Below, in pieces: positions 3,058-36,151 of a DNA stretch of 36,151 nucleotides (the stretch's first letter is position 1; each line of letters starts with the position of its first letter). Origin of the DNA: Actinomycetes bacterium (lineage in GTDB: Bacteria > Actinomycetota > Acidimicrobiia > Acidimicrobiales > UBA8190); assembly GCA_021798135.1 (NCBI GenBank), contig JAJZYI010000001.1:1-36151 (forward strand), written 5' to 3'. The position numbers and the translations under genes were made by a program. Under the pieces are notes generated by a model. The model was not told where the DNA came from and did no database searches. It saw nothing but the letters and a program-made list of their open reading frames with translations.

Positions 3058-3145
3058 ACCGCCCGTCGGGGGACCGGCTCCCGGCCATGGTCCGCGGGCG
3101 GGCACCGTCACGGCGGGCGCAGGCCGGCCCCCGCTCCTGACCGCC

Positions 3146-3180: not shown

Positions 3181-3214
3181 GCCTTTCCCGCGACCCTATG
3201 GCAGGCTGGTCGGC

Positions 3215-4072: not shown

Positions 4073-4110
4073 CGCCGTCAGTGACGCTGCCGGTCACGCC
4101 GTCGGGCCCG
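4031..4110. repeat. 30-bp direct repeat x2 (29/30 identical) spanning the stop codon of the 3215-4072 CDS
   Basis: gtgacgccgccggtcacgccgtcgggcccg at 4031-4060 and gtgacgctgccggtcacgccgtcgggcccg at 4081-4110, separated by a 20-nt spacer that contains the TGA stop. Confidence 0.85.
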
Positions 4111-4182
4111 CCGAGCGCCTGACCGCTGGCCGGACGAGCTGATCGGCCGAGGCCGCCATGCCGCCGCGGCCCCTGGTGGACG

Positions 4183-5100: not shown

Positions 5101-5310
5101 GCTCTGGCTCCTCGTGGCTCGGACGACCGGTGTCCCTCGGTCGCAGTCTGGTCCGGGACCCGTCGCCGCGCCCGGTGGCTCGTGGCGCACGTCGAGCCCG
5201 GCGGCGAGGTGCTCGACGACCGGTCGCCGCGCCCGGAGCTCGTGACCGCCGGCAGGGTTCGCCGGCCAGACGGGATCCTGTGGGTTCGCTGTGAAATCTG
5301 CCGCTTGTGA

Positions 5311-7217
<1,907 letters not shown>

Positions 7218-7218
7218 G

Positions 7219-8931
7219 GTGGGCGGGCGGCCCACGGCCGGGCGGAGCCCGCCGCGGCGCATCTGGCTGCTGCTGAGCGGGCTGCTGGTCCTCGTCGCCG
7301 GCGGCGTCGCCGTCGGCGTGGCCATGGGCCGCGGTTCGCCGTCCCCGGCGGCCGCACCGCTGCCCACGCTGGCCTCACCCGTCGAGCCGGCACCGAGCCT
7401 GGGAGGCAGCCCGCCCGTGCAGGGCCCGCTGGTGGCCAGCGGAGGGCCCTTCCTCCACGACCGTGCCGGGCGTGTCGTCGTCCTGCACGGCGTCAACGTC
7501 GTCTACAAGCACCCTCCCTACGAGGTCTTCCCGGACCCCGGCAAGCCGTGGAACTTCGACGCCGCCGACGCCTCGCTCATGGCCCGGCTGGGCTTCGACG
7601 TCGTGCGACTCGGGATGACCTGGCGCGGGCTCGAGCCCGGCACGGCGCCCGCCAACGATCCCGCGATCTGCCGCAAGGGCCCGCCGGGCGACCCGCACCA
7701 GTTCGACGAGGCCGTGCTCGACCGCTACCTCGGCCGGCTGAAGCAGACCGTCGACCTCCTCGGCCGCTTCCACATCTTCACGATCCTCGACATGCACCAG
7801 GACGTCTACAACGAGATGTTCGACGGCGAGGGTGCACCTGACTGGGCGGTCTGCACCGACGGGGTGCCGAGCGTGGACCCGCCGGGGCGGTGGTCGCTCG
7901 AGTACGCGACCGCCGCTGCCGGCATCGCCTACGACCACTTCTGGGACAACGACGTCGTCGGCGACCTCCAGGGACAGTTCGACCTGGTCTGGGGCAAAGT
8001 CGCCGGCTACTTCAGCGGCGATCCCTGGGTGATCGGGTACGACCCGTTCAACGAGCCGTTCTCCTCGTCGCTGGTGACGCTGGGGAACGAGCACTTCGAC
8101 GCACAGCTGGAGTGCTTCTACACCGGCCTGGCGCACGTGGGCCGGACGAGCAGCGGCGCGCCGCTGGTGTGCCCGCCCTCGGACCCGTCCGTGGGGGTCA
8201 TCCCGACGATCCTGGCGAGCGACCCCAAGCACCTCGTCTTCGACGAGCCGGACAACTTCGCCAGCCGCGGCTTTCCCACCCTCGTCGGCCCGATGGACTT
8301 CCCCAACCTCGTCTACAACGTGCACGTCTACTGCGGAGCCCGGAGCCCGAAGACCGGCAACCCCACCGACGTCGCTGCCTGCGTCTCGCAGGATGTCCGC
8401 TCGCTCGCCCTGCGGGCCGAGGACCTGCGGGAGATGGCGTCGCCGGCCCAGCCCGGAGGCCCGGCCTGGTTCGTCAGCGAGTTCGGTGCCTCCTCCGACC
8501 CCGTCCTGGTGGCCGCGTTCACGGCACGGGCGAACGCACACCTCGTCGGATGGGCCTACTGGTCGTGGCGGTACTACGCCGACCCGACCGGCAGCGCCGC
8601 CGAGTCGCTGCTCATGGCGGACGGCAGGCTGCGCTCGACGGCCCGGGTGCTCGCGCAGACCTACCCCGAAGCGGTGGCGGGCCGGCCGACATCGATCTCC
8701 TCCGACCCGGCGACGGGCGCCTTCCGCCTCCGCTACGTGCCCGGCCACGCGCTGCACGCCCCGACGGTGATCGTGGTCCCCGCGGCTGTGCACTATCCGT
8801 CCGGGTACTGCGCGACGGTCCGCGGTGGGACCGTCGTCTCCGGCCGTGACAGCGCTCTGCTCGAGGTCCGCAACGCTGCTCACGGCAGCACCGTGCAGGT
8901 GACCGTCACGCCCGGACCGTGTGCGGGCTGA
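7219..8931 (+). CDS. Membrane-anchored glycoside hydrolase family 5, endoglycoceramidase-like
   Basis: HGVNVVYK...VRLGMTWRGLEP...ILDMHQDVY...GAPDWA...FWDN...IGYDPFNEPF (acid/base NEP)...WFVSEFGAS (nucleophile) follows the block order I recall for Rhodococcus EGCase II. The GTG 7219 start gives a basic N-terminus plus the TM segment IWLLLSGLLVLVAGGVAVGVAM, 2 nt after the gtrA-like stop. The start is not certain; the track ORF begins at 7054. Confidence 0.8.
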   Translation: MGGRPTAGRSPPRRIWLLLSGLLVLVAGGVAVGVAMGRGSPSPAAAPLPTLASPVEPAPSLGGSPPVQGPLVASGGPFLHDRAGRVVVLHGVNVVYKHPPYEVFPDPGKPWNFDAADASLMARLGFDVVRLGMTWRGLEPGTAPANDPAICRKGPPGDPHQFDEAVLDRYLGRLKQTVDLLGRFHIFTILDMHQDVYNEMFDGEGAPDWAVCTDGVPSVDPPGRWSLEYATAAAGIAYDHFWDNDVVGDLQGQFDLVWGKVAGYFSGDPWVIGYDPFNEPFSSSLVTLGNEHFDAQLECFYTGLAHVGRTSSGAPLVCPPSDPSVGVIPTILASDPKHLVFDEPDNFASRGFPTLVGPMDFPNLVYNVHVYCGARSPKTGNPTDVAACVSQDVRSLALRAEDLREMASPAQPGGPAWFVSEFGASSDPVLVAAFTARANAHLVGWAYWSWRYYADPTGSAAESLLMADGRLRSTARVLAQTYPEAVAGRPTSISSDPATGAFRLRYVPGHALHAPTVIVVPAAVHYPSGYCATVRGGTVVSGRDSALLEVRNAAHGSTVQVTVTPGPCAG

Positions 8932-25317: not shown

Positions 25318-26223
25318 TCAGGCGCCCACCGGCCACAGCCATTCGGGGCGGTCGCCGACAGCCACCATCGTGGCGAGGTCGCCACTCACCCGGGGCAGGT
25401 CGTCGGCGTGCGTCACGCCCACGACCCTGCCGGGTCCCGGCAGCACGCGCACCCCAGGTGAGCCTGCCGTCGCCGCCATCTCGCCGACGACCTCGGGCAG
25501 CAGCACCTCGACGTCGTCGGTGGCAGCCCCGTCGGCGACGGCGCCGCCGTCGTCGACCTGGGGGTGCACCGCCGTGACGGCCTTGGCCAGCTCGTCCCAG
25601 ATCCGGGGCCGGAAGCCCCAGAGGTTCACCGAGACGGGCGTGTCGGCCGGCAGCACGGCGGGCTGGCGCCCGTCGCCGGCGGCGAAGCTGCCGTCGGTGA
25701 GCCGGCGCACCTGCTTGCGCTCGTCGATCCCCACCAGGGCGCCGTCGGCGGTGGCGCGGACCACGCCCCGCGTCACGGGGGCGTCGCCGACCACGGAGTC
25801 GCCGAGGGCGAACGTCACCAGTGCGTGCTCGTCGGTAGGGGACTGGAGGTGCTCACGCAGCCGGGCGAACGCGTCGGCACCGTAGACGTCGTCGCCGTTG
25901 ACGACGGCGAAGGGCCGGTCGCCGACGACGCTGCGGGCGCAGAGCACGGCGTGGGCGGTCCCCAGGGGCCGTTCCTGCCTGGCGACCGCGACGCTGAGCG
26001 AGCGCGGCCACACCCGGAGGACGTGGTACTCGATGGCGGGTCCCGTCACCGGGCCGAGCACCAGCACGATCTCGCCGAAACCGGCGGCGACGGCGTCGGA
26101 CGCCGTCAGGTCGATAACCGCCTCGCCGTGCAAGCCGATCGGTGCCAGCGGCTTGCAGCCGCCGTACCGCTTGGCGAGACCTGCCGCGAGGATCACCGCG
26201 ACCGGCTGCTCGGCAGCGCTCAC
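25318..26223 (-). CDS. Sugar-phosphate nucleotidyltransferase family protein
   Basis: VAVILAAGLAKRYGG (G-x-G-x-R-like NTP loop), RPLGTAHAVLCA, FAVVNGDDVYG, and a C-terminal VVGVTHADDL segment. GTGA overlap with the fabH stop. Confidence 0.75.
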   Translation of the reverse strand: MSAAEQPVAVILAAGLAKRYGGCKPLAPIGLHGEAVIDLTASDAVAAGFGEIVLVLGPVTGPAIEYHVLRVWPRSLSVAVARQERPLGTAHAVLCARSVVGDRPFAVVNGDDVYGADAFARLREHLQSPTDEHALVTFALGDSVVGDAPVTRGVVRATADGALVGIDERKQVRRLTDGSFAAGDGRQPAVLPADTPVSVNLWGFRPRIWDELAKAVTAVHPQVDDGGAVADGAATDDVEVLLPEVVGEMAATAGSPGVRVLPGPGRVVGVTHADDLPRVSGDLATMVAVGDRPEWLWPVGA

Positions 26224-27146
26224 GCGTCCCACCGCAGCACGGCGCTGGCCCAGGTCATGCCGCCGCCGAAACCGGACAGGAGCACGATGTCGCCGAGGTG
26301 CAGGCGGTCCGTCTCGGCCGCGTGCGCGAGGGCGAGCGGGATCGACGCCGAGGACGTGTTGCCGTACCGGTCGATCGTCATGACGTACCGGTCCTCGGTG
26401 ATGCCGAGCCGAGCCGCCGCCGCGGTGATGATGCGGGCGTTGGCCTGGTGGGGGACGAACAGGTCGACGTCGTCGGGCCCGAACCCGGCGCGCTCGAGCG
26501 CCGTCAGCGACGACTCGAGGACGGCGCGCACGGCGTGGCGGAAGATCTCCTTGCCGTTCATCCACAGGTGGCCGCCGTGCTCGCACCGCAGGAGGTGTCG
26601 CAGCGAGCCGTCCGCACCCAGGTGCCAGCCGAGGAGCTGGGAGGGCCCGTCGGTGGCCTCGAGGACCACGGCGCCCGCTCCGTCGCCGACCAGCACCGCG
26701 AGGGTCCGATCGTCCCAGTCGGTGATGCGCGACAGGGTCTCGCTCCCGATCAGCAGCACCCTGCGGGCCCCGGCCATGATCAGCCCGTGGGCGGTCACCA
26801 GGCCGTAGACGAAGCCCGAGCAGGCGGCGTTCAGGTCCATGGCGCCCCCGGCGATGCCGAGCCCGTCCTGGACGGTCGCGGACGTCCCCGGGACGACGGC
26901 GTCAGGCGTGGTCGTGGCCAGCACGAGCACGTCGATGTCGGCGGGCGTCACGCCGGCCCGCGCCAGCGCGGCCCGTCCGGCCGCGATGGCCAGCTCCGAC
27001 GTCGTGCCGCCGATGTGGCGTTCCTTGATGCCGGTCCGTTCGGTGATCCATTCGTCGCTGGTGTCGAGCCGCAGGGACAGGTCGGTGTTGGTGACCACCT
27101 TGTCGGGCACGGCGGTGCCCCAGCCGGTGATGCGTGCGCCGGGCAT
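26220..27146 (-). CDS. fabH: 3-oxoacyl-ACP synthase III (KAS III)
   Basis: ITGWGTAVPDKVVTNTDL...DEWITERTGIKERH, NAACSGFVYGL (Cys), VPHQANARII (His), GNTSSASIPLAL (Asn). GAGGAG lies 5 nt upstream of ATG 27146. Confidence 0.9.
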   Translation of the reverse strand: MPGARITGWGTAVPDKVVTNTDLSLRLDTSDEWITERTGIKERHIGGTTSELAIAAGRAALARAGVTPADIDVLVLATTTPDAVVPGTSATVQDGLGIAGGAMDLNAACSGFVYGLVTAHGLIMAGARRVLLIGSETLSRITDWDDRTLAVLVGDGAGAVVLEATDGPSQLLGWHLGADGSLRHLLRCEHGGHLWMNGKEIFRHAVRAVLESSLTALERAGFGPDDVDLFVPHQANARIITAAAARLGITEDRYVMTIDRYGNTSSASIPLALAHAAETDRLHLGDIVLLSGFGGGMTWASAVLRWDA

Positions 27147-27227
27147 TGGGCTCCTCTTCGGGTGACGGTGTTCGGGGCGGATGGTGCGGTCGGTGTGTCG
27201 GTGCGGGCGCCTGGCCGGGCCGCTCGG

Positions 27228-28394
27228 TCAGCTCGCCACCAGGATGTGCACAGCCGCCATGGCGGTGTCCCCGCCGATGATGCCGCCGGTGTTCACGGCC
27301 GCGCCGACCCGGGCGCGCGGCACCTGGCGGCCGGTCGCCACGCCCCGGAGCTGCCAGGTGAGCTCCGCGATCTGGGCGATGCCCGTGGCGGCCAGGGGAT
27401 GGCCCCGGGCCACGAGGCCGCCGCTCGGGTTGACGGTCACCGCCCGCCCCCCGACGTCGGTGTGGCCGTCAGCGGTGGCGCTCCCCGCTGCGCCGGGCTC
27501 GAAGAAGCCCAGCGACTCCAACGCGTAGATCTCCTCGGCGCTGGTGGCGTCGTGGAGCTCGACGACGTCGACGTCCTCGGGGCCGATGCCGGCGGCCTTC
27601 CACGCCTCGTCCGCCGCCTCGCGGATGCGGTCGTGGTAGTCGAGGTCACCCGCCCCCGACCGGGCGACGCTGGCGGCGACGCGCGGGGCCCCGCGGGTCG
27701 CCCCGGTCGCCACCACCGCCGCCGCCGCGCCGTCGGTGAACGACGAGCACATCAGGCGGGTCAGGCGGCCTGCGACGGTGGGTGCGGCCAGGACCTCGTC
27801 GACGGTGACGGTCGTGCGGAACTGCGCGAGCGGGTTGCGCGCCCCGCAGCGGCGCGCCTTCACGGCGGCGGCGGCGATCTGGGCGAGGGTGGTGCCGCGC
27901 TCGGTCAGCTGGCGCTCCACCCATGTGGCGTTGAGCCCCATGAGGAGGCTGCCGGCGCCGTTGGGGTGGGCCGCCCGCAGCGCCTCGCGCTCGTCCGCAG
28001 GCAGGCCGTCCTCGACGCCGCCGAGCGTTGCCGACCGGTCGCCGGTCCACATCTTCTCGACGCCGACGACGAGGACGGGGCTGCGTCCTCCGGCCGCCGC
28101 CATCGTCGCGAGGTGGAGGGCGGACGACCCGCCGGCGCACGAGTTGTCGACGTTGACCACCGGGGCCCCGGCCAGGTCCAGGCCGCGCAGCCAGGACTGG
28201 CCACGGATGCAGCCCTGGCCGCTGAGGCGCCCTCCGGTGGCGTTGGCGAAGACGACCAAGCCCACGGCGGACGGCTCCAGACCCGCGTCGGCGAGCGCGG
28301 CGGCTGCGGCTTCGAGCGCCATCTCCCCGGGCTCGCGGTCACGGCGCTCCATCGTGGTCATCCCCACCCCGACGACGTGCGTGGCCTGGTTCAC
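27228..28394 (-). CDS. Thiolase-like protein (SCP-x / non-specific lipid-transfer type thiolase family)
   Basis: VVGVGMT..., NVDNSCAGGSSALHLA (active-site Cys), VELHDATSAEEIYALESLG, NPSGGLVARGHPLAATG. GTG 28394 preceded by GAGG. The upstream 81 track codons are Arg/Pro-rich junk. Confidence 0.8.
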   Translation of the reverse strand: MNQATHVVGVGMTTMERRDREPGEMALEAAAAALADAGLEPSAVGLVVFANATGGRLSGQGCIRGQSWLRGLDLAGAPVVNVDNSCAGGSSALHLATMAAAGGRSPVLVVGVEKMWTGDRSATLGGVEDGLPADEREALRAAHPNGAGSLLMGLNATWVERQLTERGTTLAQIAAAAVKARRCGARNPLAQFRTTVTVDEVLAAPTVAGRLTRLMCSSFTDGAAAAVVATGATRGAPRVAASVARSGAGDLDYHDRIREAADEAWKAAGIGPEDVDVVELHDATSAEEIYALESLGFFEPGAAGSATADGHTDVGGRAVTVNPSGGLVARGHPLAATGIAQIAELTWQLRGVATGRQVPRARVGAAVNTGGIIGGDTAMAAVHILVAS

Positions 28395-28476
28395 CGGTAC
28401 CTCGATTCTGGTGGCTGTTCGAGTGGCGGTCTCGTCCCGACGACCGTCACCGGGATCCGCCACCGGCGGCCTCCGA

Positions 28477-29700
28477 TCACGACGGACCGGGCGTCGCCGC
28501 CAGGGTCGTGCGATCGGCCGGTGTGCGGGCGACGGGCGTGGCCGGCCGTGCCGGCCACGTGCCTGCGCCGTCCGACGGCAGAGCGGTTGACGGGCCCACA
28601 GTACCTCGGCGTGGTCCGGCCGGGGCCAGACCGGCACCCGGGCCGTCCCCGAGGATGTCGGCGAGCGCCGTTGCCAGGTCCTCGAACTGTACCAGCGGGG
28701 CGTCGTCGGTCACGAAGGCGACCACGTGGTCGGCACCGGCCTCGACCCACCGGGCCACGCGGGCGGCGCACTCGCGGGCCGTCCCCGCCACCAGGTGCCG
28801 GGCGAACGCCCGCGGCGGCAGGCGGTAGAGCGAGGACATCCACGCCGCGCCCCGGTCGAGCGCCCGTCCGGCCGCGCCGGGCGCCCCTCCGGCCAGCGAG
28901 ACGAAGACGACGATGGACGCCACCAGGGTGCCGGGGTCCCTGCCGGCGTCCTCGCGCCGCGCCGACAGCGAGCCGAGGGCGGCGTGGTACTCGTCAGGGG
29001 CCAGGAAGAGGGGCATCCAGCCGTCGCCGAGCCGAGCGGCGCGGTCCAGCGCCGCCGGCGACGAGCCGCCGAACCAGACGGGCACGTCGCCGGCGACCGG
29101 CCGCTGGCGGTAGCGCGCCTCGTCGGTGCTGCCGGTGGTGCCGCTGCCGGTGGTGGTGCTGCCGGTCGTGGTGCCGCCGGTGGTGCCGCTGCCGGTGGTG
29201 CCGCTGCCGGTGGTGGTGCTGCCGGTCGTGGCGTCGTGCGGCGCGGCGCCGTGGCCAGCGTCGGCCGCCGGCACCGGTCCACCCGGGTGCGCCGCCAGCC
29301 CGCCGCTCCACAGGCTCCGCAGGTCGGCCACCTGGGCGTCGAGGCGGCGGCCGCGGGCGGCGTAGTCCCGGCCGGCCGCCTCGTACTCGCCGGGATGCGA
29401 GCCGACGCCCAGGCCGAGCACGAAGCGGCCCGCCGACAGGTCCTGCAGCGACGCTGCCTGCTTCGCCACCACGCCGGCGTCGCGGAGGGGGAGCTGCAGC
29501 ACGGCCGACCCGATCGTGCACCGTTCGGTGGCGGCAGCTGCCACCCCGAGAGCGGTCAGGCACTCCACCACGGGACCGTGCCAGAAGAGGTGGTCGCAGG
29601 CCCAGACTCCGCCGGCTCCGGCGCGCTCCGCCCCGGCGGCGACGGCGGCCAGGCCGGCGGCCGTGGGCGGGGCTGCGGCCTGGGGAACGGTGGGCAGCAT
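28477..29700 (-). CDS. Luciferase-like monooxygenase (LLM) class, probably F420-dependent, oxidoreductase with a Thr/Gly/Ser-rich insertion
   Basis: AERAGAGGVWACDHLF, IGSAVLQLPLRD, FVLGLGVGSHPGEY, VPVWFGGSSPAALDRAARLGDGWMP. Interrupted by TTGSTTTGSGTTGSGTTGGTTTGSTTTGSGTTGST. The last ~60 aa are low complexity, so the real stop or the function of the tail is uncertain. Confidence 0.75.
   Translation of the reverse strand: MLPTVPQAAAPPTAAGLAAVAAGAERAGAGGVWACDHLFWHGPVVECLTALGVAAAATERCTIGSAVLQLPLRDAGVVAKQAASLQDLSAGRFVLGLGVGSHPGEYEAAGRDYAARGRRLDAQVADLRSLWSGGLAAHPGGPVPAADAGHGAAPHDATTGSTTTGSGTTGSGTTGGTTTGSTTTGSGTTGSTDEARYRQRPVAGDVPVWFGGSSPAALDRAARLGDGWMPLFLAPDEYHAALGSLSARREDAGRDPGTLVASIVVFVSLAGGAPGAAGRALDRGAAWMSSLYRLPPRAFARHLVAGTARECAARVARWVEAGADHVVAFVTDDAPLVQFEDLATALADILGDGPGAGLAPAGPRRGTVGPSTALPSDGAGTWPARPATPVARTPADRTTLAATPGPS
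29128..29230 (-). repeat. In-frame 60-bp-period duplication (43-bp identical core x2) inside the LLM CDS
   Basis: gctgccggtggtgccgctgccggtggtggtgctgccggtcgtg occurs at 29128-29170 and again at 29188-29230. It encodes the T/G/S-rich insertion. Confidence 0.9.
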
Positions 29701-29957
29701 CAACCCGAGCGTGCCGAGCCCGCCTGGACGGCGCGTGTGCTGGGCGGCGGGCGGCACGGACCGATGCTATCGGCACCGGCGGGCCCTGCTGGTGTCGCAC
29801 GCGCCACCACGGGGGTGCTCGCGCCCGTCCGCGGTCCGGTCCCGGACGCCGTCCCCTGCCGCGTCGGCGACCGCCCAGGGCACCTGCGCCAGCCGGCAGG
29901 GCGGGTCGGTGGCCGCCCGCGGCACGGTCAGGTCGCGGTTCCCGGCAGAATGGTGGC

Positions 29958-30287
29958 ATGGACGCCACGACGCCGAGCGACGAGGAGCAGGCCGAGCGCC
30001 GCCGCGCCCTCGAGGAGCTCCTCGACATGATGCGGCCCGCGGTCCAGGCCGACGGGGGTGACCTGGTCCTGGTGCACGCGGACGTCGTCACCGGGGTGGT
30101 CGAGGTGCAGCTCCAGGGCGCGTGCAGCAGCTGCGCGATCTCGTCGGCGACGCTGCAGGGCGGGGTGGAGCGGATCCTGCGCGACCGCCTGCCGTGGGTG
30201 ACCGAGGTGACCGGCGGTGTCGACGAGGACGTCGACCCGCTGGTCAGCGCGGCGGCAGGACGCGGCGCCTACGTGCCCCGCTGGTAG
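29958..30287 (+). CDS. NifU C-terminal-domain (Nfu-type) Fe-S cluster scaffold/carrier protein
   Basis: LEELLDMMRPAVQADGGDLVLV...VEVQLQGACSSCAISSATLQGGVERILR is an Nfu fold with the CxxC motif. It is the only credible part of the 1381-aa track ORF. Confidence 0.8.
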   Translation: MDATTPSDEEQAERRRALEELLDMMRPAVQADGGDLVLVHADVVTGVVEVQLQGACSSCAISSATLQGGVERILRDRLPWVTEVTGGVDEDVDPLVSAAAGRGAYVPRW

Positions 30288-30343
30288 CGGCGCCCGACGG
30301 CCGGGACGGGGCGCCGGGGCCAGGCGTGGTGCAGACTGGCGCC

Positions 30344-31111
30344 ATGTGGAGCCGCCACGCCGTCGCGGCAGCATCCATGGGCACGGCCGCCGTGCTGGCC
30401 CACGCCCTGCCGTCGGTGACGGTGCTGGGGACGTTCGCGCCGTCGCCGCCGGCGGTCCTGCCCGCAGGCTGGTGCCGGTGGCGGTGGCCGGCGTCCGGGG
30501 CGGCCGGCGCCCTGGCGCTCACCTTCGACGACGGTCCCGACCCCCTGACCACGCCGAGGACCCTTGACCTGCTCGACGAGCTGGGCCTGCGGGCGACGTT
30601 CTTCCTGGTCGGCGGCGAGGTCGACCGGTACCCGGCACTCGCCGCCGAGATCGCGGGCCGTGGCCATGGCGTCGCCGTCCACGGGCACGGGCACCGGCAC
30701 CACCTCCTCCGGTCGCCGGGCTGGGTGTGCGCGGACACGGCTCTCGCCGTGGCCGCCGTCGGCCGGGCGACGGGCGTGGTGCCCCGCTGGTACCGACCGC
30801 CGTACGGCCAGACCAGCATCGGGACCGTCCGGGCGGCGCAGCGGCACGGGCTGCAGGTGGTGCTGTGGTCGCGCTGGGGGCGCGAGTTCGCCGAGCGGTC
30901 GGCCGGCCCGGTCCTGGAGCGGCTGCGGCCCGGCCTGGTGGCGGGCGGGGTCCTGCTGCTGCACGACAGCGACCGCTACGCCCGGCCGGGCACGGCGGCG
31001 CTCACCCACCAGGTGCTCCGACCGCTCGCCGGCGAGCTCGCCCGTCGCCAGCTGGTCAGTGTCCCCCTCGACGAGCTGGACCGGCGGTCCGCGGCGGCGG
31101 AGGCGGCGTGA
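30344..31111 (+). CDS. Polysaccharide deacetylase (NodB homology domain, CE4) with an N-terminal hydrophobic segment
   Basis: LALTFDDGPDP (Asp-Asp motif 1), ATFFLVGGEV, HGVAVHGHGHRHH (His motif 2), WYRPPYG (motif 3), VVLWS. Confidence 0.85.
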   Translation: MWSRHAVAAASMGTAAVLAHALPSVTVLGTFAPSPPAVLPAGWCRWRWPASGAAGALALTFDDGPDPLTTPRTLDLLDELGLRATFFLVGGEVDRYPALAAEIAGRGHGVAVHGHGHRHHLLRSPGWVCADTALAVAAVGRATGVVPRWYRPPYGQTSIGTVRAAQRHGLQVVLWSRWGREFAERSAGPVLERLRPGLVAGGVLLLHDSDRYARPGTAALTHQVLRPLAGELARRQLVSVPLDELDRRSAAAEAA

Positions 31112-32370
31112 GCGCTCCGGCCGCGGACGTGCCGGGGCCTGCGGACCCGCCGATGCCTGCCGGCTCGCCGCCGCCGGCACCGCTGCCCTCTGGCGGCGAG
31201 GGCTGGCGGGCGCTGGTGCTGACCGGGTCCATCGGGCGGGGCCAGGACTCGGCCGCGGAGGCGTGCCAGGCCGCGCTGGTGGCTGCCGGCGGTTCGGCGT
31301 CGATCTTCGACTGCATGGTCCTGCTCGGCGAGACGGGCCGCCGGCTGGGTGAGGCGGCGTTCCGGCGAGCCCTGTCGGCGGCACCCGTCTACGACGCGCT
31401 GCACTTCTCGCAGCTCCGCAGCGACAGCGCGCTGGCCGAGCGCATGGAGGAGGCCGCCGCGTCCAGGCTGGTGCCGCGCCTCCGGCGCGAGATCGAGCGG
31501 AGCGGGGCGCAGCTGCTGGTCTCGGCCTTCCCCACGGGCGCGGGGGCGCTCGGGCGCCTGCGCCAGGAGATGCCGCGCCGGCGGGTGGTGGTCGTCTGCA
31601 CCGACGCCGCCGCGCACCGGCTGTGGGCGCACCCGGCGGTCGACCGCTACGTCGTGTTCTCCGAGATGACGGCCGGGACGATACGCCAGTACCTGCCGGC
31701 AGCGGACGTGGTGGTGCTGCCGCCGGCGGTCCGGCCAGCGTTCTTCAGCGCGCCGGGCCGGGCCGAGGCCCGTGACGCGCTCGGCATCGACCGTGCCGTC
31801 CCGTGCGTGCTGCTCATGGGCGGCGGCTGGGGCATGGCCCGGCTGGTCGACGCGGCAGCCGGGCTGGCCGGTGCCGGCTACCGGGTGCTGGCCGTCGCGG
31901 GGAGCAACCGGGCGCTGCGCCGGCGGCTCGAGGCGCTCGCCCGGGGCCTGCCCCGGCACGGCGGCTCGGGGGTCACGGTCTACGGCTACACCACGGAGGT
32001 GCCGGCCCTCATGGCCGCGTGCGACGTGGTCGTGACGACCCCGGGCCAGACCTGCCACGAGGCGCGCGTCATGCGGCGGCCGCTGGTGGTGCTCGACGCG
32101 GTACCCGGCCACGGCCGCGAGAACCTCCTCCTCGAGATGGTGCGCGGCGGCGCGCTGGCCTGCACCCCCCGTCCGTCGTCGGTGGTCGCCGGGGTTGCCT
32201 CGGTGCTCGACGGGGCCGTCGACGCCGACGCGCCGTGGCCCGTCCGGAGCGCCGAGGCGTGGGGGGAGCAGTTCCTCTCCGCCGTCTCCGACCTGGTCGA
32301 CGGGGCCACGGCCGACCCCGGTGGCAGGCGCGGCCGCGGGCCCGAGGCGCTCGCCGGCGGCCCGGCCTGA
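31108..32370 (+). CDS. GT28-type diacylglycerol glycosyltransferase (MGDG-synthase / UgtP-like)
   Basis: Block order as in B. subtilis UgtP, from memory: LVLTGSIGRGQ, VCTDAAAHRLWAHPAVDRYVV, LPPAVRPAFF, CVLLMGGGWG, AVAGSNRALRRRLEAL, VYGYTTEVPALMAACDVVVTTPGQTCHEA, VPGHGRENL. GTGA overlap with the deacetylase stop. Confidence 0.75.
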   Translation: MSAPAADVPGPADPPMPAGSPPPAPLPSGGEGWRALVLTGSIGRGQDSAAEACQAALVAAGGSASIFDCMVLLGETGRRLGEAAFRRALSAAPVYDALHFSQLRSDSALAERMEEAAASRLVPRLRREIERSGAQLLVSAFPTGAGALGRLRQEMPRRRVVVVCTDAAAHRLWAHPAVDRYVVFSEMTAGTIRQYLPAADVVVLPPAVRPAFFSAPGRAEARDALGIDRAVPCVLLMGGGWGMARLVDAAAGLAGAGYRVLAVAGSNRALRRRLEALARGLPRHGGSGVTVYGYTTEVPALMAACDVVVTTPGQTCHEARVMRRPLVVLDAVPGHGRENLLLEMVRGGALACTPRPSSVVAGVASVLDGAVDADAPWPVRSAEAWGEQFLSAVSDLVDGATADPGGRRGRGPEALAGGPA

Positions 32371-32486
32371 GCCGGCGTTTGCGCCGGTGGCCCCGGACGG
32401 GCGAGGCTGGTCGGCCATGGTCGCCCTCGTCACGCCGCGGTGCCGTGCCTGATCTCGCCCAGCGGTCGGCGGGGGCGCGCCCGGCC

Positions 32487-33953
32487 ATGGCGCAGCGGTC
32501 GTCCGAATGGGTCGTGGCGATGCGGGAGTCGTGGGAGCGCAGCACCCGCATCACGGTGCCGCCCGAGGTGCCCGCGGCCCCGCCGTCGACACCCGACGGC
32601 ATCCGCGTCGCCCTGCTGGTGTACCGGGGGAACCCTCGATGCGGCGGCCAGGGCGTCTACACCAGGCACCTGGCCCGCGAGCTGGTGGCCCTCGGGCACA
32701 GCGTCCAGGTGCTGGCCGGCCAGCCCTGGCCCGAGCTCGACGCCGGGACCGGCTTCACGCCGGTCCCGGGGCTCGACCTGTACCGAGACCCCGATCCCTT
32801 CCGGGTGCCGCACCCTCGCGAGCTGCGGAGCGCGGCGGACGCCGCCGAGCTGGCGATCATGTGCGCAGCCGGTTTCCCCGAGCCGCGGACGTTCTCGTGG
32901 CGGGCGCGGCGCTTCCTCGCCGCCAACCGCCACCGCTTCGACCTCGTGCACGACAACCAGTGCCTCGGGTCCGGCCTGCTCGGCATGCTCGACGACGGCT
33001 GGCCGCTGGTGGCCACGATCCACCACCCGATCACCGTGGACCGCGAGCTCGCGCTCGCCCACGCCGAGGACTTCAAGCGCCGTCTGGGGCAGCGGCGATG
33101 GTTCGGCTTCCTCGGCATGCAGATGCGCGTCGCCCGCCAGCTGCCGCGGATCGTCACCGTGTCGGACTCGTCGCGCACGGACATCGCCGGGCAGCTCGGC
33201 GTCGACCCGGGCCGGATGACGGTGGTGCCCGTCGGCGTCGACCACACCGTGTTCCGCCCACGGCCCGAGCGACCCCGCGTCCCCGGGCGGATCATGGTCA
33301 CCTCGTCGAGCGACGTCCCGATGAAGGGCCTGGTGCCCCTGCTGCACGCGGTGGCCAAGCTCCGCACCGAGCGCGAGGTGGAGGTGGTCGTCATCGGCCA
33401 CCCCCGTCCCGGTGGCAGGGTCGACCGGACCATCGACGAGCTGGGGCTCGCGCCGGCGGTCCGGTGCGTGACCGGCGTCAGCGACGACGAGCTCGCCTGC
33501 CTCTACGCCGAGGCGCAGGTGGCGGTGGTCCCTTCCCTGTACGAGGGGTTCTCGCTGCCGGCCGTCGAGGCCATGGCGTGCGGGGTCCCGCTGGTGGCCA
33601 CCACCGGCGGTGCCATACCCGAGGTCGTGGGCACCTCCGGCGAGACGGCCCTGCTCGTCGCCCCGGGCGACGCCGAGGCCCTGGCCGCGGCCCTGCGCCG
33701 GGTGCTCGACGAGCCGGTGCTCGCCGCGTCGCTCGGCGAGCGCGGCCGGCAGCGGGTGCTGGGCCGCTTCACCTGGCGCGCCACCGCCGTGGGCACGGCC
33801 GAGCAGTACCTCGCCGCGCTGGAGGACCACCGCCGTGGCCTGGGTGGCCGGTGCCGGCCGCCGGCCCGGGCGGAGCGCGAGGGCTGGGCCGAGCAGAGCC
33901 GCCGGGCCCGCGCTGCGGTGAGCGGAGCGGGGACGGTCGGGGTCGGGCGGTGA
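32487..33953 (+). CDS. Glycosyltransferase family 4 (GT-B, RfaG/PimB-like; resembles the mycobacterial Rv0225-type family from memory)
   Basis: IRVALLVYRGNPRCGGQGVYTRHLAREL, DLVHDNQC, ATIHHPIT, SLYEGFSLPAVEAMACGVPLVATTGGAIPEVV (E-x7-E region). The start is either ATG 32487 or ATG 32520. Confidence 0.85.
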   Translation: MAQRSSEWVVAMRESWERSTRITVPPEVPAAPPSTPDGIRVALLVYRGNPRCGGQGVYTRHLARELVALGHSVQVLAGQPWPELDAGTGFTPVPGLDLYRDPDPFRVPHPRELRSAADAAELAIMCAAGFPEPRTFSWRARRFLAANRHRFDLVHDNQCLGSGLLGMLDDGWPLVATIHHPITVDRELALAHAEDFKRRLGQRRWFGFLGMQMRVARQLPRIVTVSDSSRTDIAGQLGVDPGRMTVVPVGVDHTVFRPRPERPRVPGRIMVTSSSDVPMKGLVPLLHAVAKLRTEREVEVVVIGHPRPGGRVDRTIDELGLAPAVRCVTGVSDDELACLYAEAQVAVVPSLYEGFSLPAVEAMACGVPLVATTGGAIPEVVGTSGETALLVAPGDAEALAAALRRVLDEPVLAASLGERGRQRVLGRFTWRATAVGTAEQYLAALEDHRRGLGGRCRPPARAEREGWAEQSRRARAAVSGAGTVGVGR

Positions 33954-34023
33954 GCGGCGACGGGGCGGGCGGCGCCGGCGGAGGCCGGGGTGCGCCGGGG
34001 GCAGGGGAGCGGAGCGCGGCAAG

Positions 34024-34737
34024 GTGCTGACCGTCGACTACGACCGCCTGGGGCTTCGCCGGGGCGAGCGGCTGCTCGACCTGGGCTGCGGCGGGGGCAG
34101 GCACGCCTTCGAGGCGGCGCGGCGCGGCGCGCACGTGGTCGCCCTCGACGCCGGCGCCGAGGAGATCGACGCCGTCCGGGCAGTGCTGGCGGCGATGGCG
34201 GAGGCGGGGGAGCTCCGTGCCGGCGGCCAGGCGACGGCGCTGCGCGGGGACGCGCGGCGGCTCCCCTTCCCGGACGGGTCGTTCGACCGCGTGATCGCGG
34301 CCGAGGTCCTGGAGCACGTGCCGGAGGACGGCACCGCCATGGCCGAGCTGGCCCGGGTGCTCCGGCCCGGCGGCACCATCGCCGTCACCGTCCCCCGGTT
34401 CGGGCCGGAGGTCGTGAACTGGGCCCTGTCGTCGGAGTACCACGACGTGCCCGGCGGCCACGTCCGGATCTACCGGCGCTCGGTGCTGGGACGCCGGCTC
34501 CGGTCCAGCGGACTGCGGCCGGTGGGCCACCACCACGCGCACGCGCTGCACTCGCCGTACTGGTGGCTCAAGTGCCTGGTGGGCGTCCGGCGCGACGACC
34601 ACCCCGCCGTGCGCGCCTACCACCGCATGCTCGTGTGGGACATCACCGACCGGCCTTGGCTGACGCGCCGCGCGGACGCGCTGCTGAACCCGGTCCTCGG
34701 CAAGAGCCTCGTCGTGTACGCGGAGAAGCCGGCGTGA
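34024..34737 (+). CDS. Class I SAM-dependent methyltransferase (Methyltransf_11-like)
   Basis: RLLDLGCGGGRHAFEAARRGAHVVALD (motif I), FDRVIAAEVLEHV, LARVLRPGGTIAVTVP. GTG start. Confidence 0.85.
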   Translation: MLTVDYDRLGLRRGERLLDLGCGGGRHAFEAARRGAHVVALDAGAEEIDAVRAVLAAMAEAGELRAGGQATALRGDARRLPFPDGSFDRVIAAEVLEHVPEDGTAMAELARVLRPGGTIAVTVPRFGPEVVNWALSSEYHDVPGGHVRIYRRSVLGRRLRSSGLRPVGHHHAHALHSPYWWLKCLVGVRRDDHPAVRAYHRMLVWDITDRPWLTRRADALLNPVLGKSLVVYAEKPA

Positions 34738-36011
34738 ACGGTCGCGGCCCGCTCGCAGGCGCGCCCGCCCGCGTGGACGTCGGCAGCCCGGCAGGCGGAG
34801 GGGACGGTGCTCGGGCCGGCGCCGTCGCCGCGGTGCCGGGCAACGACGGCGGCCGGAGCGCGCACGCCCCTCCCGCCGGGCTGCGGCACCACGGGCAGCC
34901 ACCCGGGACGTCGGGGCCGGCCAGCGCCGTGCCCGCGCTCGCCGGCGTGCTCGACGCCGACGAGGTCCGGGCCAGCGCAGCCGCCATCGCCGCCGTGCAG
35001 CGTCCCGACGGCATGATCCCCTGGTTCCCCGGCGGGCACAGCGACCCGTGGAACCACGTGGAGGCGGCCATGGCCCTGGACGTCGCCGGACTGGAGGACG
35101 CGGCGACCGCCGCCTACCGGTGGCTGGTCGCCCGCCAGCTCCCCGAGGGCGGGTGGTTCAACTACTACCACTGGGACGGCAGCGTGGAGGACCAGCGCGT
35201 CGACACCAACGTCTGCGCCTACGTGGCCACCGGAGCGTGGCACCGCTTCCTGCTGCGAGGTGACCGGGGGGCCCTGCAGGAGCTGTGGCCGGCCATCGAC
35301 CGGGCCATCCGCTTCGTCCTCCGCTGGCAGCAGCCCGACGGGACCGTCCGCTGGTCGGTGGACCCCGACGGCCGGCCCGGCCGGTTCGCGCTGCTCACCG
35401 GGTCGTCCTCGATCCTGCACTCGCTGCGCTGTGCCGTGGCGTGCGCCGAGGAGCTGGGTCACGAGCGGCCCGACTGGGAGCTGGCCGCGGGCCGCCTCGC
35501 CCACGCCGTGGCGCACCGTCCCGGCGCCTTCGAGCCGAAGGGCGAGTTCGCCATGGACTGGTACTACCCCGTCATCTCCGGCGCGCTGACGGGGGACCGG
35601 GCGGTCGCCCACCTGCAGGCGGGCTGGGACACCTTCGTCATGGAGGGCCTGGGCGTCCGGTGCGTCTCGACGGGCCCGTGGGTCACGGCCGCGGAGACGG
35701 CCGAGTGCGCCATCGCGCTGGACGCCGCAGGCCGCCGCGGCCTCGCCGCCGCCGTGCTCACCTGGGCGCAGGCGCACCGCCAGGCCGACGGCTCCTACCT
35801 GACCGGGATCGTCTACCCGGAGCAGTCGACCTTCCCCGTCGACCAGACCAGCACCTACACCGCGGCGGCCGTCGTGCTCGCCGTCGACGCCGTCTCCCGG
35901 ACCAGCCCGGCGTCGGGGATCTTCCGGGGCGAGCACCTTCCCGCTGCCGTCGACCTGGACGAGGCGCCGCTCGGGCTCACGGCGAGGAGCGTGCCCGAAC
36001 CCGGCCGCTGA
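34734..36011 (+). CDS. Prenyltransferase / squalene-cyclase-repeat (alpha/alpha toroid) protein
   Basis: Four QW-like repeats: QRPDGMIPWF, RQLPEGGWFNYY, WQQPDGTVRWS, HRQADGSYL. GTGA overlap with the methyltransferase stop. The N-terminal ~70 aa are Gly/Ala-rich. Confidence 0.75.
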   Translation: MNGRGPLAGAPARVDVGSPAGGGDGARAGAVAAVPGNDGGRSAHAPPAGLRHHGQPPGTSGPASAVPALAGVLDADEVRASAAAIAAVQRPDGMIPWFPGGHSDPWNHVEAAMALDVAGLEDAATAAYRWLVARQLPEGGWFNYYHWDGSVEDQRVDTNVCAYVATGAWHRFLLRGDRGALQELWPAIDRAIRFVLRWQQPDGTVRWSVDPDGRPGRFALLTGSSSILHSLRCAVACAEELGHERPDWELAAGRLAHAVAHRPGAFEPKGEFAMDWYYPVISGALTGDRAVAHLQAGWDTFVMEGLGVRCVSTGPWVTAAETAECAIALDAAGRRGLAAAVLTWAQAHRQADGSYLTGIVYPEQSTFPVDQTSTYTAAAVVLAVDAVSRTSPASGIFRGEHLPAAVDLDEAPLGLTARSVPEPGR

Positions 36012-36114
36012 CGGCGGAGCGCCCGCGGTTCGGGGCGCGGCGGGCGCGGTCCGGCGGAGCGCCCGCGGTTCAGGGCGCGGCAGGCGCGATCCGGCGGAGC
36101 GCCCGCAGCGAGCC
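36012..36114. repeat. 40-bp tandem repeat x2.6 starting immediately after the last stop codon; each unit is hairpin-forming
   Basis: cggcggagcgcccgcggttcggggcgcggcgggcgcggtc (36012-36051), cggcggagcgcccgcggttcagggcgcggcaggcgcgatc (36052-36091), then a partial unit. Within a unit, GCGCCCGC pairs with GCGGGCGC. Confidence 0.9.
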
Positions 36115-36151
36115 CCAGGCGCCGTCGTCCGACCACTCGCCGGACCGGAGT

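What the first reader, a model, noticed from the sequence alone, without database searches (positions are those of the whole stretch)
30344..36011. Deacetylase - GT28 (MGDG-synthase-like) - GT4 - methyltransferase - terpene-cyclase-fold cassette: an uncharacterised glycolipid/envelope pathway
Five same-strand genes with two GTGA start/stop overlaps (31108 and 34734) and short gaps. Established knowledge: UgtP/MGDG-synthase-type GT28 enzymes glycosylate diacylglycerol; CE4 enzymes de-N/O-acetylate sugars; QW-repeat alpha/alpha toroid proteins bind or cyclise polyprenyl chains. Inference: together these suggest a glycosylated, deacetylated, methylated lipid or polyprenyl-linked product that I cannot assign to a known pathway. 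Because sqdB lies in the same 36-kb window without its usual partner transferase, the GT28 or GT4 here is a candidate non-canonical sulfoquinovosyl transferase. This link is speculative, as the loci are 23 kb apart.
Basis: partly seen in the sequence, partly recalled or inferred. Interest (0 to 1): 0.62.

Follow-up and report, generated by a model that had tools for sequence, protein, structure and literature searches.

The report
Methylmannose polysaccharide operon plus lipid-glycosylation pair
The five genes are two separate units placed side by side in an uncultured Acidimicrobiales bacterium: a methylmannose polysaccharide operon already characterised in mycobacteria, and an uncharacterised sugar-transferase/deacetylase pair that probably decorates a membrane lipid, possibly a hopanoid.

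Summary
The five same-strand genes are real, but they are not one new pathway. Genes 3-5 (GT4, methyltransferase, alpha/alpha barrel) are orthologues of mycobacterial ManT, pMeT3 and MmpH, which make methylmannose polysaccharide (MMP). PDB matches are 7QSG at E 1e-134 and 7QSJ at E 1e-103. The fourth MMP gene, meT1, lies convergent across the contig break. Gene 5 is a glycoside hydrolase, not a terpene cyclase.

This triad is conserved in all Acidimicrobiales loci whose contigs cover it. MmpH occurs in 143 of 301 genomes of the class. manT has its own conserved promoter-like box and a leaderless uORF of about 10 codons, both inside the 74-nt gap after gene 2.

Genes 1-2 (CE4 deacetylase plus an MGD1-like GT28 transferase) form an independent pair. 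The two genes were adjacent or nearly so in 13 of 14 genomic contexts examined, usually far from MMP genes. The pair is rare: close homologues occur in 3 of 301 class genomes. It occurs without sqdB, so the sulfoquinovose idea is not supported.

A paralogue of gene 2 sits in an operon with hpnJ. The genome has shc and hpnH but no HpnK, and gene 1 is its only CE4. The pair therefore probably makes an amino-sugar lipid, on diacylglycerol or on bacteriohopanetetrol.

The parts
30344..31111 (+). CE4 (NodB-type) de-acetylase with a conserved N-terminal hydrophobic LPSVxVLG...CRWRGP segment. An alternative start lies at 30377.
   Evidence: Pfam PF01522 at 94 bits. All five CE4 motifs (TFDDGP, HxxxH, RPxYGQ, LWSxWGxE, LLHD) are conserved in the 12 partner CE4s, apart from one copy called from a late start. 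It is the only CE4 homologue in the assembly.
31108..32370 (+). GT28-family, MGD1/UgtP-like GT-B lipid glycosyltransferase, translationally coupled to the CE4 gene by a GTGA overlap.
   Evidence: Pfam MGDG_synth is above its cut-off. PDB phmmer hits MGD1 at 5.9e-15 and a UgtP-type enzyme at 3.9e-13, with no MurG match. The AF2 model has pLDDT 89.7 and Foldseek ranks MGD1 first. A CE4 gene lies immediately upstream in 12 of 14 contexts and about 1 kb away in a thirteenth.
32379..32408 (+). Promoter-like box in front of the manT operon: TTGCGC (32379-32384), 18 nt, GAGGCT (32403-32408), then 8 nt to the ATG.
   Evidence: Read from the sequence. The same element lies upstream of manT in 59 of 88 loci by nhmmer, whatever gene precedes it. 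This is the only hit in the organism's own genome, at C32:32376-32428, E 0.0026. In three relatives the box sits 8 nt before manT's own ATG.
32417..32452 (+). Predicted leaderless 11-codon uORF (MVALVTPRCRA*). Its stop overlaps the manT GTG start within GTGCCTGA.
   Evidence: The uORF is exactly 10 codons in 42 relatives. Its peptide sequence is not conserved. Its length and its overlap with the manT start are conserved.
32445..33953 (+). manT, the GDP-mannose-dependent alpha-(1->4)-mannosyltransferase of MMP synthesis. An alternative start lies at 32487.
   Evidence: PDB 7QSG (M. hassiacum ManT) at E 1.1e-134 and 53% identity. Gly15, Lys240, Asp293, Glu313, Gly314, Phe315, Leu317 and Glu321 are all conserved (residues taken from PMC9883506).
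34024..34737 (+). meT3, the putative MMP 3-O-methyltransferase (class I SAM-dependent methyltransferase).
   Evidence: Pfam Methyltransf_11. It is 58% identical over 236 aa to the gene lying between manT and mmpH in a Mycobacteriaceae-type genome.
34734..36011 (+). mmpH, the MMP endo-alpha-(1->4)-mannosidase, an (alpha/alpha)6 barrel. The first ~63 residues are a low-complexity extension and the true start is uncertain.
   Evidence: PDB 7QSJ at E 1e-103 and 49% identity. Asp47, Trp49, Asn101, Thr163, Met215, Tyr219, Glu262 and Glu265 are conserved. Asp50 is replaced by Asn in all 70 Acidimicrobiales copies in which the motif was found.
36012..36106 (.). 40-nt tandem repeat (2.4 copies here) between the convergent stops of mmpH and meT1. 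It duplicates the 3' end of meT1 and is where the assembly broke.
   Evidence: TRF results. The end of C32 overlaps the start of contig C390, which carries one more repeat copy.
36070..36151 (-). The last 26 codons and stop of meT1, the MMP 1-O-methyltransferase. The rest of the gene is on contig C390:80-766.
   Evidence: The full protein matches PDB 6G7D (M. hassiacum MeT1) at E 3e-68 and 55% identity. A near-identical 51.7-kb contig, L113, spans the junction.

Best explanation
The region holds two independent units that became neighbours in one Acidimicrobiales lineage.

Unit B runs from the promoter box at 32379 through mmpH, with meT1 convergent beyond it. It is the four-gene methylmannose polysaccharide (MMP) system known from mycobacteria. 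By analogy with that system (inferred, not shown here), MmpH cuts existing MMP into oligomannoside primers. MeT1 caps their reducing end with a 1-O-methyl group. ManT extends them with alpha-1,4-mannose from GDP-mannose. MeT3 3-O-methylates the chain. Transcription probably starts leaderless at a uORF of about 10 codons, whose stop overlaps the manT start and so allows coupled translation (inferred).

Unit A (30344-32370) is a translationally coupled pair: a membrane-associated MGD1-like GT28 glycosyltransferase and a CE4 deacetylase. I infer that it transfers an N-acetyl-hexosamine from a UDP-sugar to the hydroxyl of a membrane lipid and then removes the acetyl group, giving an amino-sugar lipid. 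The acceptor is unresolved. The two candidates are diacylglycerol and bacteriohopanetetrol.
For: Unit B. PDB sequence matches are ManT E 1e-134, MmpH E 1e-103 and MeT1 E 3e-68, with catalytic residues conserved. The gene order and orientation (manT-meT3-mmpH, then convergent meT1) are the same as in a Mycobacteriaceae-type genome, at 46-58% identity. The triad is conserved in all related loci whose contigs cover it. MmpH is present in 143 of 301 class genomes and 67 of 401 phylum genomes.

Separation of the units. Genes 1-2 are absent from 79 of 80 related MMP loci. Close homologues of gene 2 occur in only 3 of 301 class genomes. G422 has a gene-2 homologue but no MmpH. In G136 and G184 the pair and mmpH lie on different contigs. 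In L118 and L137 the pair is separated from manT by mgtE and nramp genes. The conserved promoter-like box and uORF sit between gene 2 and manT in this window and in Aciditerrimonas.

Unit A. A CE4 gene lies immediately upstream of the gene-2 homologue in 12 of 14 contexts and about 1 kb away in a thirteenth. The CE4 motifs are intact. The fold is MGD1-like. Recurrent neighbours are a DegT aminotransferase with an epimerase/dehydratase, which points to an amino-sugar donor; a PLC-type phosphoesterase; and acyl-CoA ligases.
Against: No product has been observed, and MMP has never been reported from Acidimicrobiia. The methyltransferase called MeT3 is still only 'putative' in mycobacteria. MmpH carries Asn at the Asp50 position, and the Asp50Ala mutation cripples the mycobacterial enzyme. 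The pair is directly adjacent to manT, on the same strand, in at least two genera of the family (three species of the window's genus and G675) and in cultured Aciditerrimonas ferrireducens, so read-through co-transcription and a functional link cannot be excluded. For Unit A, the donor and acceptor are inferred from context only. CE4 enzymes can also be O-deacetylases. The promoter is a sequence-conservation inference.
Confidence: 0.75

Rival explanations
1. Genes 1-2 are hopanoid side-chain enzymes. The GT28-like protein adds GlcNAc to bacteriohopanetetrol, doing the job of HpnI. The CE4 removes the acetyl group, doing the job of HpnK. The product, BHT-glucosamine, is then turned into BHT cyclitol ether by the HpnJ encoded elsewhere in the genome. 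This is a more specific version of Unit A and competes with the diacylglycerol reading.
For: A 49%-identical paralogue of gene 2 overlaps by 4 nt with a bona fide hpnJ (800 bits against a cut-off of 578) on contig C213. The same GT-hpnJ pair is found in G671 and G673 and in six metagenome contigs that carry the closest HpnJ relatives. The genome has HpnD-like, HpnE, SHC and HpnH genes. It has no HpnK above cut-off and no YdjC-type hit at all. No deacetylase lies next to the GT-hpnJ pairs. Gene 1 is the only CE4 in the assembly. shc is present in 6 of 12 genomes that carry the GT family, including all four tested genomes of the window's own clade, and in 0 of 17 relatives tested for both and lacking the family (Fisher p 0.001 computed on the first 28 genomes, uncorrected for phylogeny). 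In G422, shc lies 23 kb from the GT/CE4 cluster.
Against: Six genomes with CE4-GT pairs lack shc: G136, G184, G678, G683, G688 and G689. Two of these are 96-100% complete, so the family as a whole cannot be hopanoid-specific. The hpnJ-linked copy is the paralogue, not gene 2, and CE4 is never clustered with hpnJ. The N-terminal hydrophobic segment of the CE4 might place it outside the cell, whereas HpnJ is cytoplasmic. The absence of HpnI (TIGR03472) was not tested. The assembly is only 83% complete.
Confidence: 0.3
2. All five genes, plus meT1, form one pathway. Genes 1-2 make or modify a primer, anchor or acetylated variant of the methylmannose polymer, giving an Acidimicrobiales-specific modified MMP.
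For: The genes share a strand with short gaps, and the order is conserved in the window's genus, in G675 and in Aciditerrimonas ferrireducens. The pair lies in the same syntenic block a few kb upstream of manT in L118 and L137. Streptomyces griseus makes an acetylated MMP (cited in PMC9883506).
Against: More than 95% of MMP-bearing relatives lack the pair. The pair occurs without MmpH in G422 and unlinked to it in G136 and G184. manT keeps its own promoter-like box and uORF. MeT1 caps the reducing end with a methyl group, which leaves no place for a lipid anchor. G675 keeps the GT next to manT but has lost the CE4. The Streptomyces-type MMP locus has no homologue of gene 1 or gene 2.
Confidence: 0.1
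3. The GT28 or GT4 protein is a non-canonical sulfoquinovosyl transferase that uses UDP-sulfoquinovose from the sqdB gene 23 kb away.
For: sqdB is in the window (453 bits to the UDP-sulfoquinovose synthase model, below its 575-bit cut-off) and has no canonical SqdX next to it.
Against: GT4 is a ManT orthologue, and the Asp293 proposed to contact the guanine base of GDP-mannose is conserved. The GT28 gene is almost always partnered with an acetyl-removing CE4, which makes no sense for sulfoquinovose. G136 and G184 carry the pair but have no sqdB at E 1e-40 or better. sqdB here is coupled to its own GtrA and GH5 genes (earlier finding e1-4260475).
Confidence: 0.02

Closest known systems
Mycobacterial MMP gene cluster (Mycolicibacterium hassiacum MHAS_04402-04405: ManT, pMeT3, MmpH, MeT1; PMC9883506; PDB 7QSG, 7QSJ, 6G7D)
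   Same: All four genes are present in the same order and orientation: manT-meT3-mmpH, then convergent meT1. Identity is 46-58%. The ManT donor-binding and catalytic residues and the MmpH catalytic Asp47/Glu262 pair are conserved.
   Different: The host belongs to a different class (Acidimicrobiia) and lacks a FAS-I marker domain. MmpH has DPWNH instead of DPWDH, and also carries Phe102Val and Trp315Tyr. ManT and MmpH carry N-terminal extensions. A leaderless uORF overlaps the manT start. No product has been demonstrated.
GT28 lipid glycosyltransferases: Arabidopsis MGD1 (PDB 4X1T) and bacterial UgtP/YpfP
   Same: Gene 2 has the GT-B fold with an MGDG_synth N-terminal domain. These are its best sequence and structure matches. 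It has no transmembrane segment, as expected for a monotopic membrane enzyme.
   Different: Identity is only about 20%, and the score is far below the UgtP equivalog cut-off (63 against 500 bits). Gene 2 is almost always paired with a CE4 deacetylase, which MGD1 and UgtP are not. Its donor and acceptor are unknown.
HpnI-HpnK-HpnJ branch of hopanoid side-chain synthesis (Burkholderia, Rhodopseudomonas)
   Same: The logic is the same: a glycosyltransferase adds GlcNAc to a lipid alcohol, a deacetylase frees the amine, and radical-SAM HpnJ then acts. A true HpnJ is operon-linked to a paralogue of gene 2 in this genome.
   Different: HpnI and HpnK are separate curated NCBIfam families (TIGR03472, TIGR03473); from my own recollection, not checked here, they are a GT2 and a YdjC-family enzyme. 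Here the candidates are a GT28-like enzyme and a CE4, so any equivalence would be non-orthologous replacement. Half of the genomes carrying the pair have no squalene-hopene cyclase.
CE4 de-N-acetylases (NodB, PgdA, PdaC)
   Same: Gene 1 has the NodB homology domain with all five catalytic motifs. NodB is its best NCBIfam hit.
   Different: All scores are far below the equivalog cut-offs. Gene 1 has a distinctive conserved N-terminal LPSVxVLG...CRWRGP segment and a fixed partnership with the GT28-like gene.

Membership tests
MMP biosynthesis cluster (ManT/pMeT3/MmpH/MeT1) | ManT orthologue with the GDP-mannose binding and catalytic residues (Gly15, Lys240, Asp293, Glu313, Glu321) | tested here: met
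   7QSG at E 1.1e-134 and 53% identity; all listed residues are conserved.
MMP biosynthesis cluster (ManT/pMeT3/MmpH/MeT1) | MmpH orthologue with catalytic base Glu262 and acid Asp47 | tested here: met
   7QSJ at E 1e-103; Asp47 corresponds to D104 and Glu262 to E321.
MMP biosynthesis cluster (ManT/pMeT3/MmpH/MeT1) | MmpH Asp50, the second candidate acid, whose Ala mutant is nearly inactive | tested here: not met
   It is Asn107 here, and the motif is DPWNH in all 70 Acidimicrobiales copies in which it was found. This is a conservative, class-wide change and does not by itself argue against activity.
MMP biosynthesis cluster (ManT/pMeT3/MmpH/MeT1) | MeT1 1-O-methyltransferase present next to mmpH | tested here: met
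   It is convergent, with its stop at window 36070-36072 and the rest on C390. It matches 6G7D at E 3e-68. L113 spans the junction.
MMP biosynthesis cluster (ManT/pMeT3/MmpH/MeT1) | pMeT3 methyltransferase lying between manT and mmpH | tested here: met
   58% identity over 236 aa to the gene in the same position in a Mycobacteriaceae-type genome, G430.
MMP biosynthesis cluster (ManT/pMeT3/MmpH/MeT1) | The cell makes a 3-O-methylmannose polymer | not testable with these tools
   This needs chemistry on a culture, for example of Aciditerrimonas ferrireducens.
GT28 / MGDG-synthase family | MGDG_synth N-terminal domain above the Pfam threshold, and an MGD1-like rather than MurG-like fold | tested here: met
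   PF06925 at 36.1 bits against a cut-off of 25. There is no MurG hit in the PDB at E<=1. Foldseek gives MGD1 at E 2e-15 and MurG at 4e-9.
UgtP (diglucosyl-DAG synthase) equivalog | NCBIfam NF010135 score above its cut-off | tested here: not met
   63.3 bits against a cut-off of 500.
CE4 deacetylase | NodB domain with the Asp-Asp, His-His, RxPY and LxH motifs | tested here: met
   PF01522 at 94 bits. The motifs are conserved across the 12 partner proteins, apart from one copy called from a late start.
Squalene-hopene / terpene cyclase (gene 5) | Pfam SQHop_cyclase domains above threshold, a DxDD acid motif and QW repeats | tested here: not met
   23.3 and 15.7 bits, both below the cut-offs of about 26. 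Gene 5 has no DxDD, DDxxD or QW consensus. The genome's real SHC is on contig C388.
Sulfoquinovosyl-DAG synthase partner of SqdB | Co-occurrence of the transferase with sqdB | tested here: not met
   G136 and G184 have the CE4-GT28 pair but no sqdB. GT4 is ManT.
HpnI/HpnK (canonical hopanoid GlcNAc transferase and deacetylase) | Homology to TIGR03472 / TIGR03473 | tested here: inconclusive
   No HpnK above cut-off was found in any of 28 genomes, and the organism's own genome gave no hit at all. Neither gene 1 nor gene 2 matched an Hpn family in the NCBIfam scan at E<=1e-3.

The most novel reading that the evidence does not exclude
The CE4 plus GT28-like pair, together with its hpnJ-linked paralogue, is a previously undescribed actinobacterial route to amino-sugar hopanoids (BHT-glucosamine and BHT cyclitol ether). 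It would replace the unrelated HpnI and HpnK enzymes. In genomes without a cyclase, the same enzyme family would make an amino-sugar diacylglycerol. Separately, MMP, long regarded as a mycobacterial and Streptomyces speciality tied to fatty-acid synthase I, would be a near-universal cytoplasmic polymer of Acidimicrobiales that lack FAS-I, controlled by a leaderless uORF.
Probability: 0.3. Interest if true: 0.7.

Novelty: new variant of a known kind. Interest (0 to 1): 0.5.

Why it matters
First, the finding moves three of the five 'unknown' genes, plus a fourth gene across the contig break, into a pathway with solved structures and a known mechanism. It also shows that this pathway is far more widespread than the literature states. 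The published survey (PMC9883506) covered mycobacteria and a handful of related actinobacteria. Here MmpH is found in 74 of 75 sampled genomes of the order and about half of the class. These organisms lack a FAS-I marker domain, which bears on the long-standing question of what polymethylated polysaccharides are for.

Second, every Acidimicrobiales MmpH in which the motif was found has Asn at position 50. This natural variation favours Asp47 as the general acid, a point the structural paper left open.

Third, the CE4/GT28 pair and the GT28-hpnJ operon give a testable candidate for the 'missing' downstream hopanoid-modifying enzymes of Actinomycetota. A recent survey (PMC12324291) reported some Actinomycetota as having HpnH but lacking the enzymes for downstream modification.

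Fourth, a cultured relative with the same gene order, Aciditerrimonas ferrireducens, makes all of this experimentally accessible.

Tried and rejected
- Terpene cyclase or prenyl-binding role for gene 5: rejected. The Pfam hits are below threshold, gene 5 has no DxDD, DDxxD or QW motifs, and it matches MmpH at E 1e-103.
- Sulfoquinovosyl transferase: rejected.
- Acetylated-MMP link through the CE4 gene, as in Streptomyces: no homologue of gene 1 or gene 2 lies at a Streptomyces-type MMP locus, and acetylation would need an acetyltransferase, not a deacetylase.
- Sigma-70 promoter and intrinsic terminator scan of 29500-36151: nothing found. The consensus does not suit this 75% GC actinobacterium.
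- Rfam scan of the region: only a chance miRNA hit at E 0.88.
- Literature searches for GlcNAc-DAG or GlcN-DAG synthases paired with deacetylases, and for MMP in Acidimicrobiia: nothing relevant.
- A deacetylase next to the GT-hpnJ operons: none found in L161, L162, L171, L176 or L192.
- Canonical HpnK: absent.
- shc search in the records behind L116-L120 and L137-L140: those records were not held.

Full report
**Observation**

The window is a complete 36,151-bp contig (C32) of an 83%-complete, 75% GC Acidimicrobiales metagenome-assembled genome. In DNA this GC-rich, long ORFs appear in every frame. I therefore used third-position GC to pick the real frames. Five + strand genes result:
- CE4 at 30344/30377-31111
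- a GT-B at 31108-32370
- a GT4 at 32445/32487-33953
- a methyltransferase at 34024-34737
- an alpha/alpha-barrel protein at 34734-36011

Pfam confirms the CE4, MGDG_synth, GT4 and methyltransferase calls. The squalene-hopene cyclase matches to gene 5 are below threshold.

**Genes 3-5 are the methylmannose polysaccharide (MMP) system**

Searching the sequences of solved structures was decisive.
- Gene 5 matches the M. hassiacum MMP hydrolase MmpH (7QSJ) at E 1e-103.
- Gene 3 matches 7QSG at E 1e-134. PMC9883506 identifies this entry as ManT, the alpha-(1->4)-mannosyltransferase of MMP synthesis.

That paper describes a four-gene cluster: manT, a putative 3-O-methyltransferase pmeT3, mmpH and the 1-O-methyltransferase meT1.

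The window stops 140 nt after mmpH. Its last 79 nt encode, on the minus strand, the C-terminus of a protein whose remainder is on contig C390. The two contigs overlap across a 40-nt tandem repeat. The complete protein matches M. hassiacum MeT1 (6G7D) at E 3e-68. A near-identical 51.7-kb public contig spans the break and shows the order NifU, CE4, GT28-like, ManT, methyltransferase, MmpH, then convergent MeT1 and an M1 aminopeptidase.

In a Mycobacteriaceae-type genome whose MmpH is 85% identical to the M. hassiacum enzyme, the order and orientation are the same. The gene between manT and mmpH there is 58% identical to gene 4 over its full length, so gene 4 is the pMeT3 orthologue.

Residue mapping against the published mutagenesis gave these results.
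- In ManT, Gly15, Lys240, Asp293, Glu313, Gly314, Phe315, Leu317 and Glu321 are all conserved.
- In MmpH, the base Glu262 and the candidate acid Asp47 are conserved, as are Trp49, Asn101, Thr163, Met215, Tyr219 and Glu265.
- MmpH Asp50 is Asn, Phe102 is Val and Trp315 is Tyr.
- Asn at position 50 is found in all 70 Acidimicrobiales copies in which the motif was found.
- Gene 5 has no DxDD, DDxxD or QW motif. It is a glycoside hydrolase, not a cyclase.

**Distribution of the MMP genes**

All 80 closest loci in the species-representative genome collection are Acidimicrobiales MAGs. Every one whose contig reaches far enough carries ManT, the methyltransferase and MmpH in this order. MeT1 follows in 48 of them. 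MmpH is present in 143 of 301 sampled genomes of the class, including 74 of 75 from the same order. It is present in 67 of 401 genomes sampled across the phylum, including Streptomyces-sized and Mycobacteriaceae-type genomes. I found no paper in the searchable library that mentions MMP in Acidimicrobiia. A FAS-I marker domain (PF08354) is absent from this genome and 20 relatives, although the control search detects it in Corynebacterium glutamicum.

**Genes 1-2 are a separate unit**

Several lines of evidence show this.
- In the 80 related MMP loci, gene 2 never occurs and a homologue of gene 1 occurs once.
- Close homologues of gene 2 are found in only 3 of 301 class genomes and 2 of 401 phylum genomes.
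- In two of those genomes (G136, G184) the pair and mmpH are on different contigs.
- One genome (G422, 94% complete) has no MmpH at all.

Wherever a member of the gene-2 clade was inspected, a CE4 gene with the same distinctive N-terminal LPSVxVLG...CRWRGP segment was almost always present. It lies immediately upstream, usually with a 4-nt overlap, in 12 contexts: the window, two congeners (G671, G672), Aciditerrimonas ferrireducens, L118, L119, L120, L137, L138, L139, L140, G136, G184, G678, G688 and a second copy in G675. In G422 it lies about 1 kb downstream. The one exception is the G675 copy next to manT, which has lost its CE4. The genes around the pair differ from case to case.

In L118 and L137 the pair lies in the same syntenic block as the MMP genes, but it is separated from manT by mgtE and nramp. 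The direct abutment seen in the window's genus, in G675 and in Aciditerrimonas therefore looks like the result of a local deletion.

**manT has its own promoter-like element and uORF**

The 74 nt between gene 2 and manT contain TTGCGC, then 18 nt, then GAGGCT, then 8 nt, then an ATG. That ATG opens an 11-codon ORF whose stop overlaps the manT GTG start within GTGCCTGA. The same architecture precedes manT in most relatives, whatever gene lies upstream.
- nhmmer finds it in 59 of 88 loci, always as a single hit per locus.
- Its only hit in this organism's whole genome is at C32:32376-32428.
- The uORF is exactly 10 codons in 42 loci. Its peptide is not conserved.
- In three loci the box sits 8 nt before manT's own ATG.

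I read this as a promoter that produces a leaderless mRNA, with translational coupling from the uORF to manT. This rests on sequence conservation only.

**What genes 1-2 probably do**

Gene 2 is MGD1/UgtP-like, not MurG-like. Gene 1 has every CE4 catalytic motif. The near-invariant partnership with a deacetylase argues for an N-acetylated sugar donor. So do the recurrent DegT aminotransferase and epimerase/dehydratase neighbours. PLC-type phosphoesterase and acyl-CoA ligase neighbours fit a diacylglycerol acceptor.

An unexpected second lead came from the organism's own genome. A 49%-identical paralogue of gene 2 overlaps a bona fide hpnJ and is followed by a DMT transporter. The same GT-hpnJ operon recurs in two relatives and in the six metagenome contigs that carry the closest HpnJ relatives.

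The genome also encodes HpnD-like, HpnE, SHC and HpnH proteins. It has no HpnK or any YdjC-type protein. Gene 1 is its only CE4. No deacetylase is clustered with the GT-hpnJ operons. In the known pathway (table in PMC12324291), HpnJ acts on glucosaminyl-BHT, which HpnI and HpnK make.

A maximum-likelihood tree places the hpnJ-linked paralogues as a derived clade nested among CE4-linked members. Gene 2 falls in a well-supported clade with its manT-adjacent relatives.

shc is present in six of twelve genomes carrying the family, including all four tested genomes of the window's clade. It is present in none of the 17 relatives that were tested for both and lack the family. Six genomes with a pair lack shc, two of them essentially complete. 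The family as a whole therefore cannot be hopanoid-specific. I leave the acceptor open: roughly 40% diacylglycerol, 30% bacteriohopanetetrol and the rest other.

**The sqdB link**

GT4 is ManT. The GT28 gene is tied to a deacetylase. G136 and G184 carry the pair without any sqdB. An earlier follow-up on this genome (e1-4260475) had already tied sqdB to its own GtrA and GH5 partners. The link is not supported.

**Verdict**

The region is a known polysaccharide operon, newly recognised in a class where it had not been reported, lying next to an uncharacterised but recurrent lipid-glycosylation pair. Three things are worth following up: the hopanoid lead, the class-wide spread of MMP genes in bacteria without FAS-I, and the conserved leaderless uORF.

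Noticed in passing
own genome contig C213 (locus L111) 2-3598, minus strand: This is an operon of a GT28-like paralogue of gene 2 (49% identity), a bona fide hpnJ (800 bits, above cut-off) and a DMT-family transporter, with a 4-nt overlap between the GT and hpnJ. The same GT-hpnJ pair is found in G671, G673 and six metagenome contigs. It suggests a GT28-type replacement for HpnI in Actinomycetota.
   Followed up: partly
own genome contig C388 (locus L159) 33-8088: This is the hopanoid core cluster: an HpnD-like protein, HpnE, a polyprenyl synthase, squalene-hopene cyclase (743 bits), IspH and HpnH (506 bits). This Acidimicrobiales organism should therefore make extended C35 hopanoids.
   Followed up: partly
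window 36012-36106 and L112 3-116: A 40-nt tandem repeat between the convergent stops of mmpH and meT1 duplicates the last codons of meT1. In the extra copy the stop codon is changed. The copy number differs between the two contig ends, and this is where the assembly broke. First-stage notes describe similar 3'-terminal duplications elsewhere in this contig.
   Followed up: partly
MmpH residue 107 (window about 35052-35054), and the 70 related copies in which the motif was found: Every Acidimicrobiales MmpH in which the motif was found has DPWNH where the mycobacterial enzyme has DPWDH. The published work could not decide between Asp47 and Asp50 as the catalytic acid. This natural variation favours Asp47.
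   Followed up: yes
window 25318-29502 minus strand, and loci L043, L053, L116, L137: The LLM oxidoreductase / thiolase / FabH / sugar-nucleotidyltransferase / acylphosphatase operon stays syntenic with NifU and the MMP locus in several relatives. MMP is thought to bind acyl-CoA, so a link to this fatty-acid-type operon might be worth testing.
   Followed up: no
own genome contig C7 3043-4227: There is a second sqdB paralogue, 68% identical to the one in the window.
   Followed up: no
locus L146 (genome G675): In this relative the GT28-like gene sits between NifU and manT without any CE4 gene. The spacer before manT is filled with tandem repeats. A second CE4-GT pair exists elsewhere in the same genome (L151/L160).
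   Followed up: partly
own genome and 20 relatives: The FAS-I marker domain PF08354 is absent, although the control search detects it in Corynebacterium glutamicum. The MMP genes here therefore cannot be serving a type I fatty-acid synthase.
   Followed up: partly
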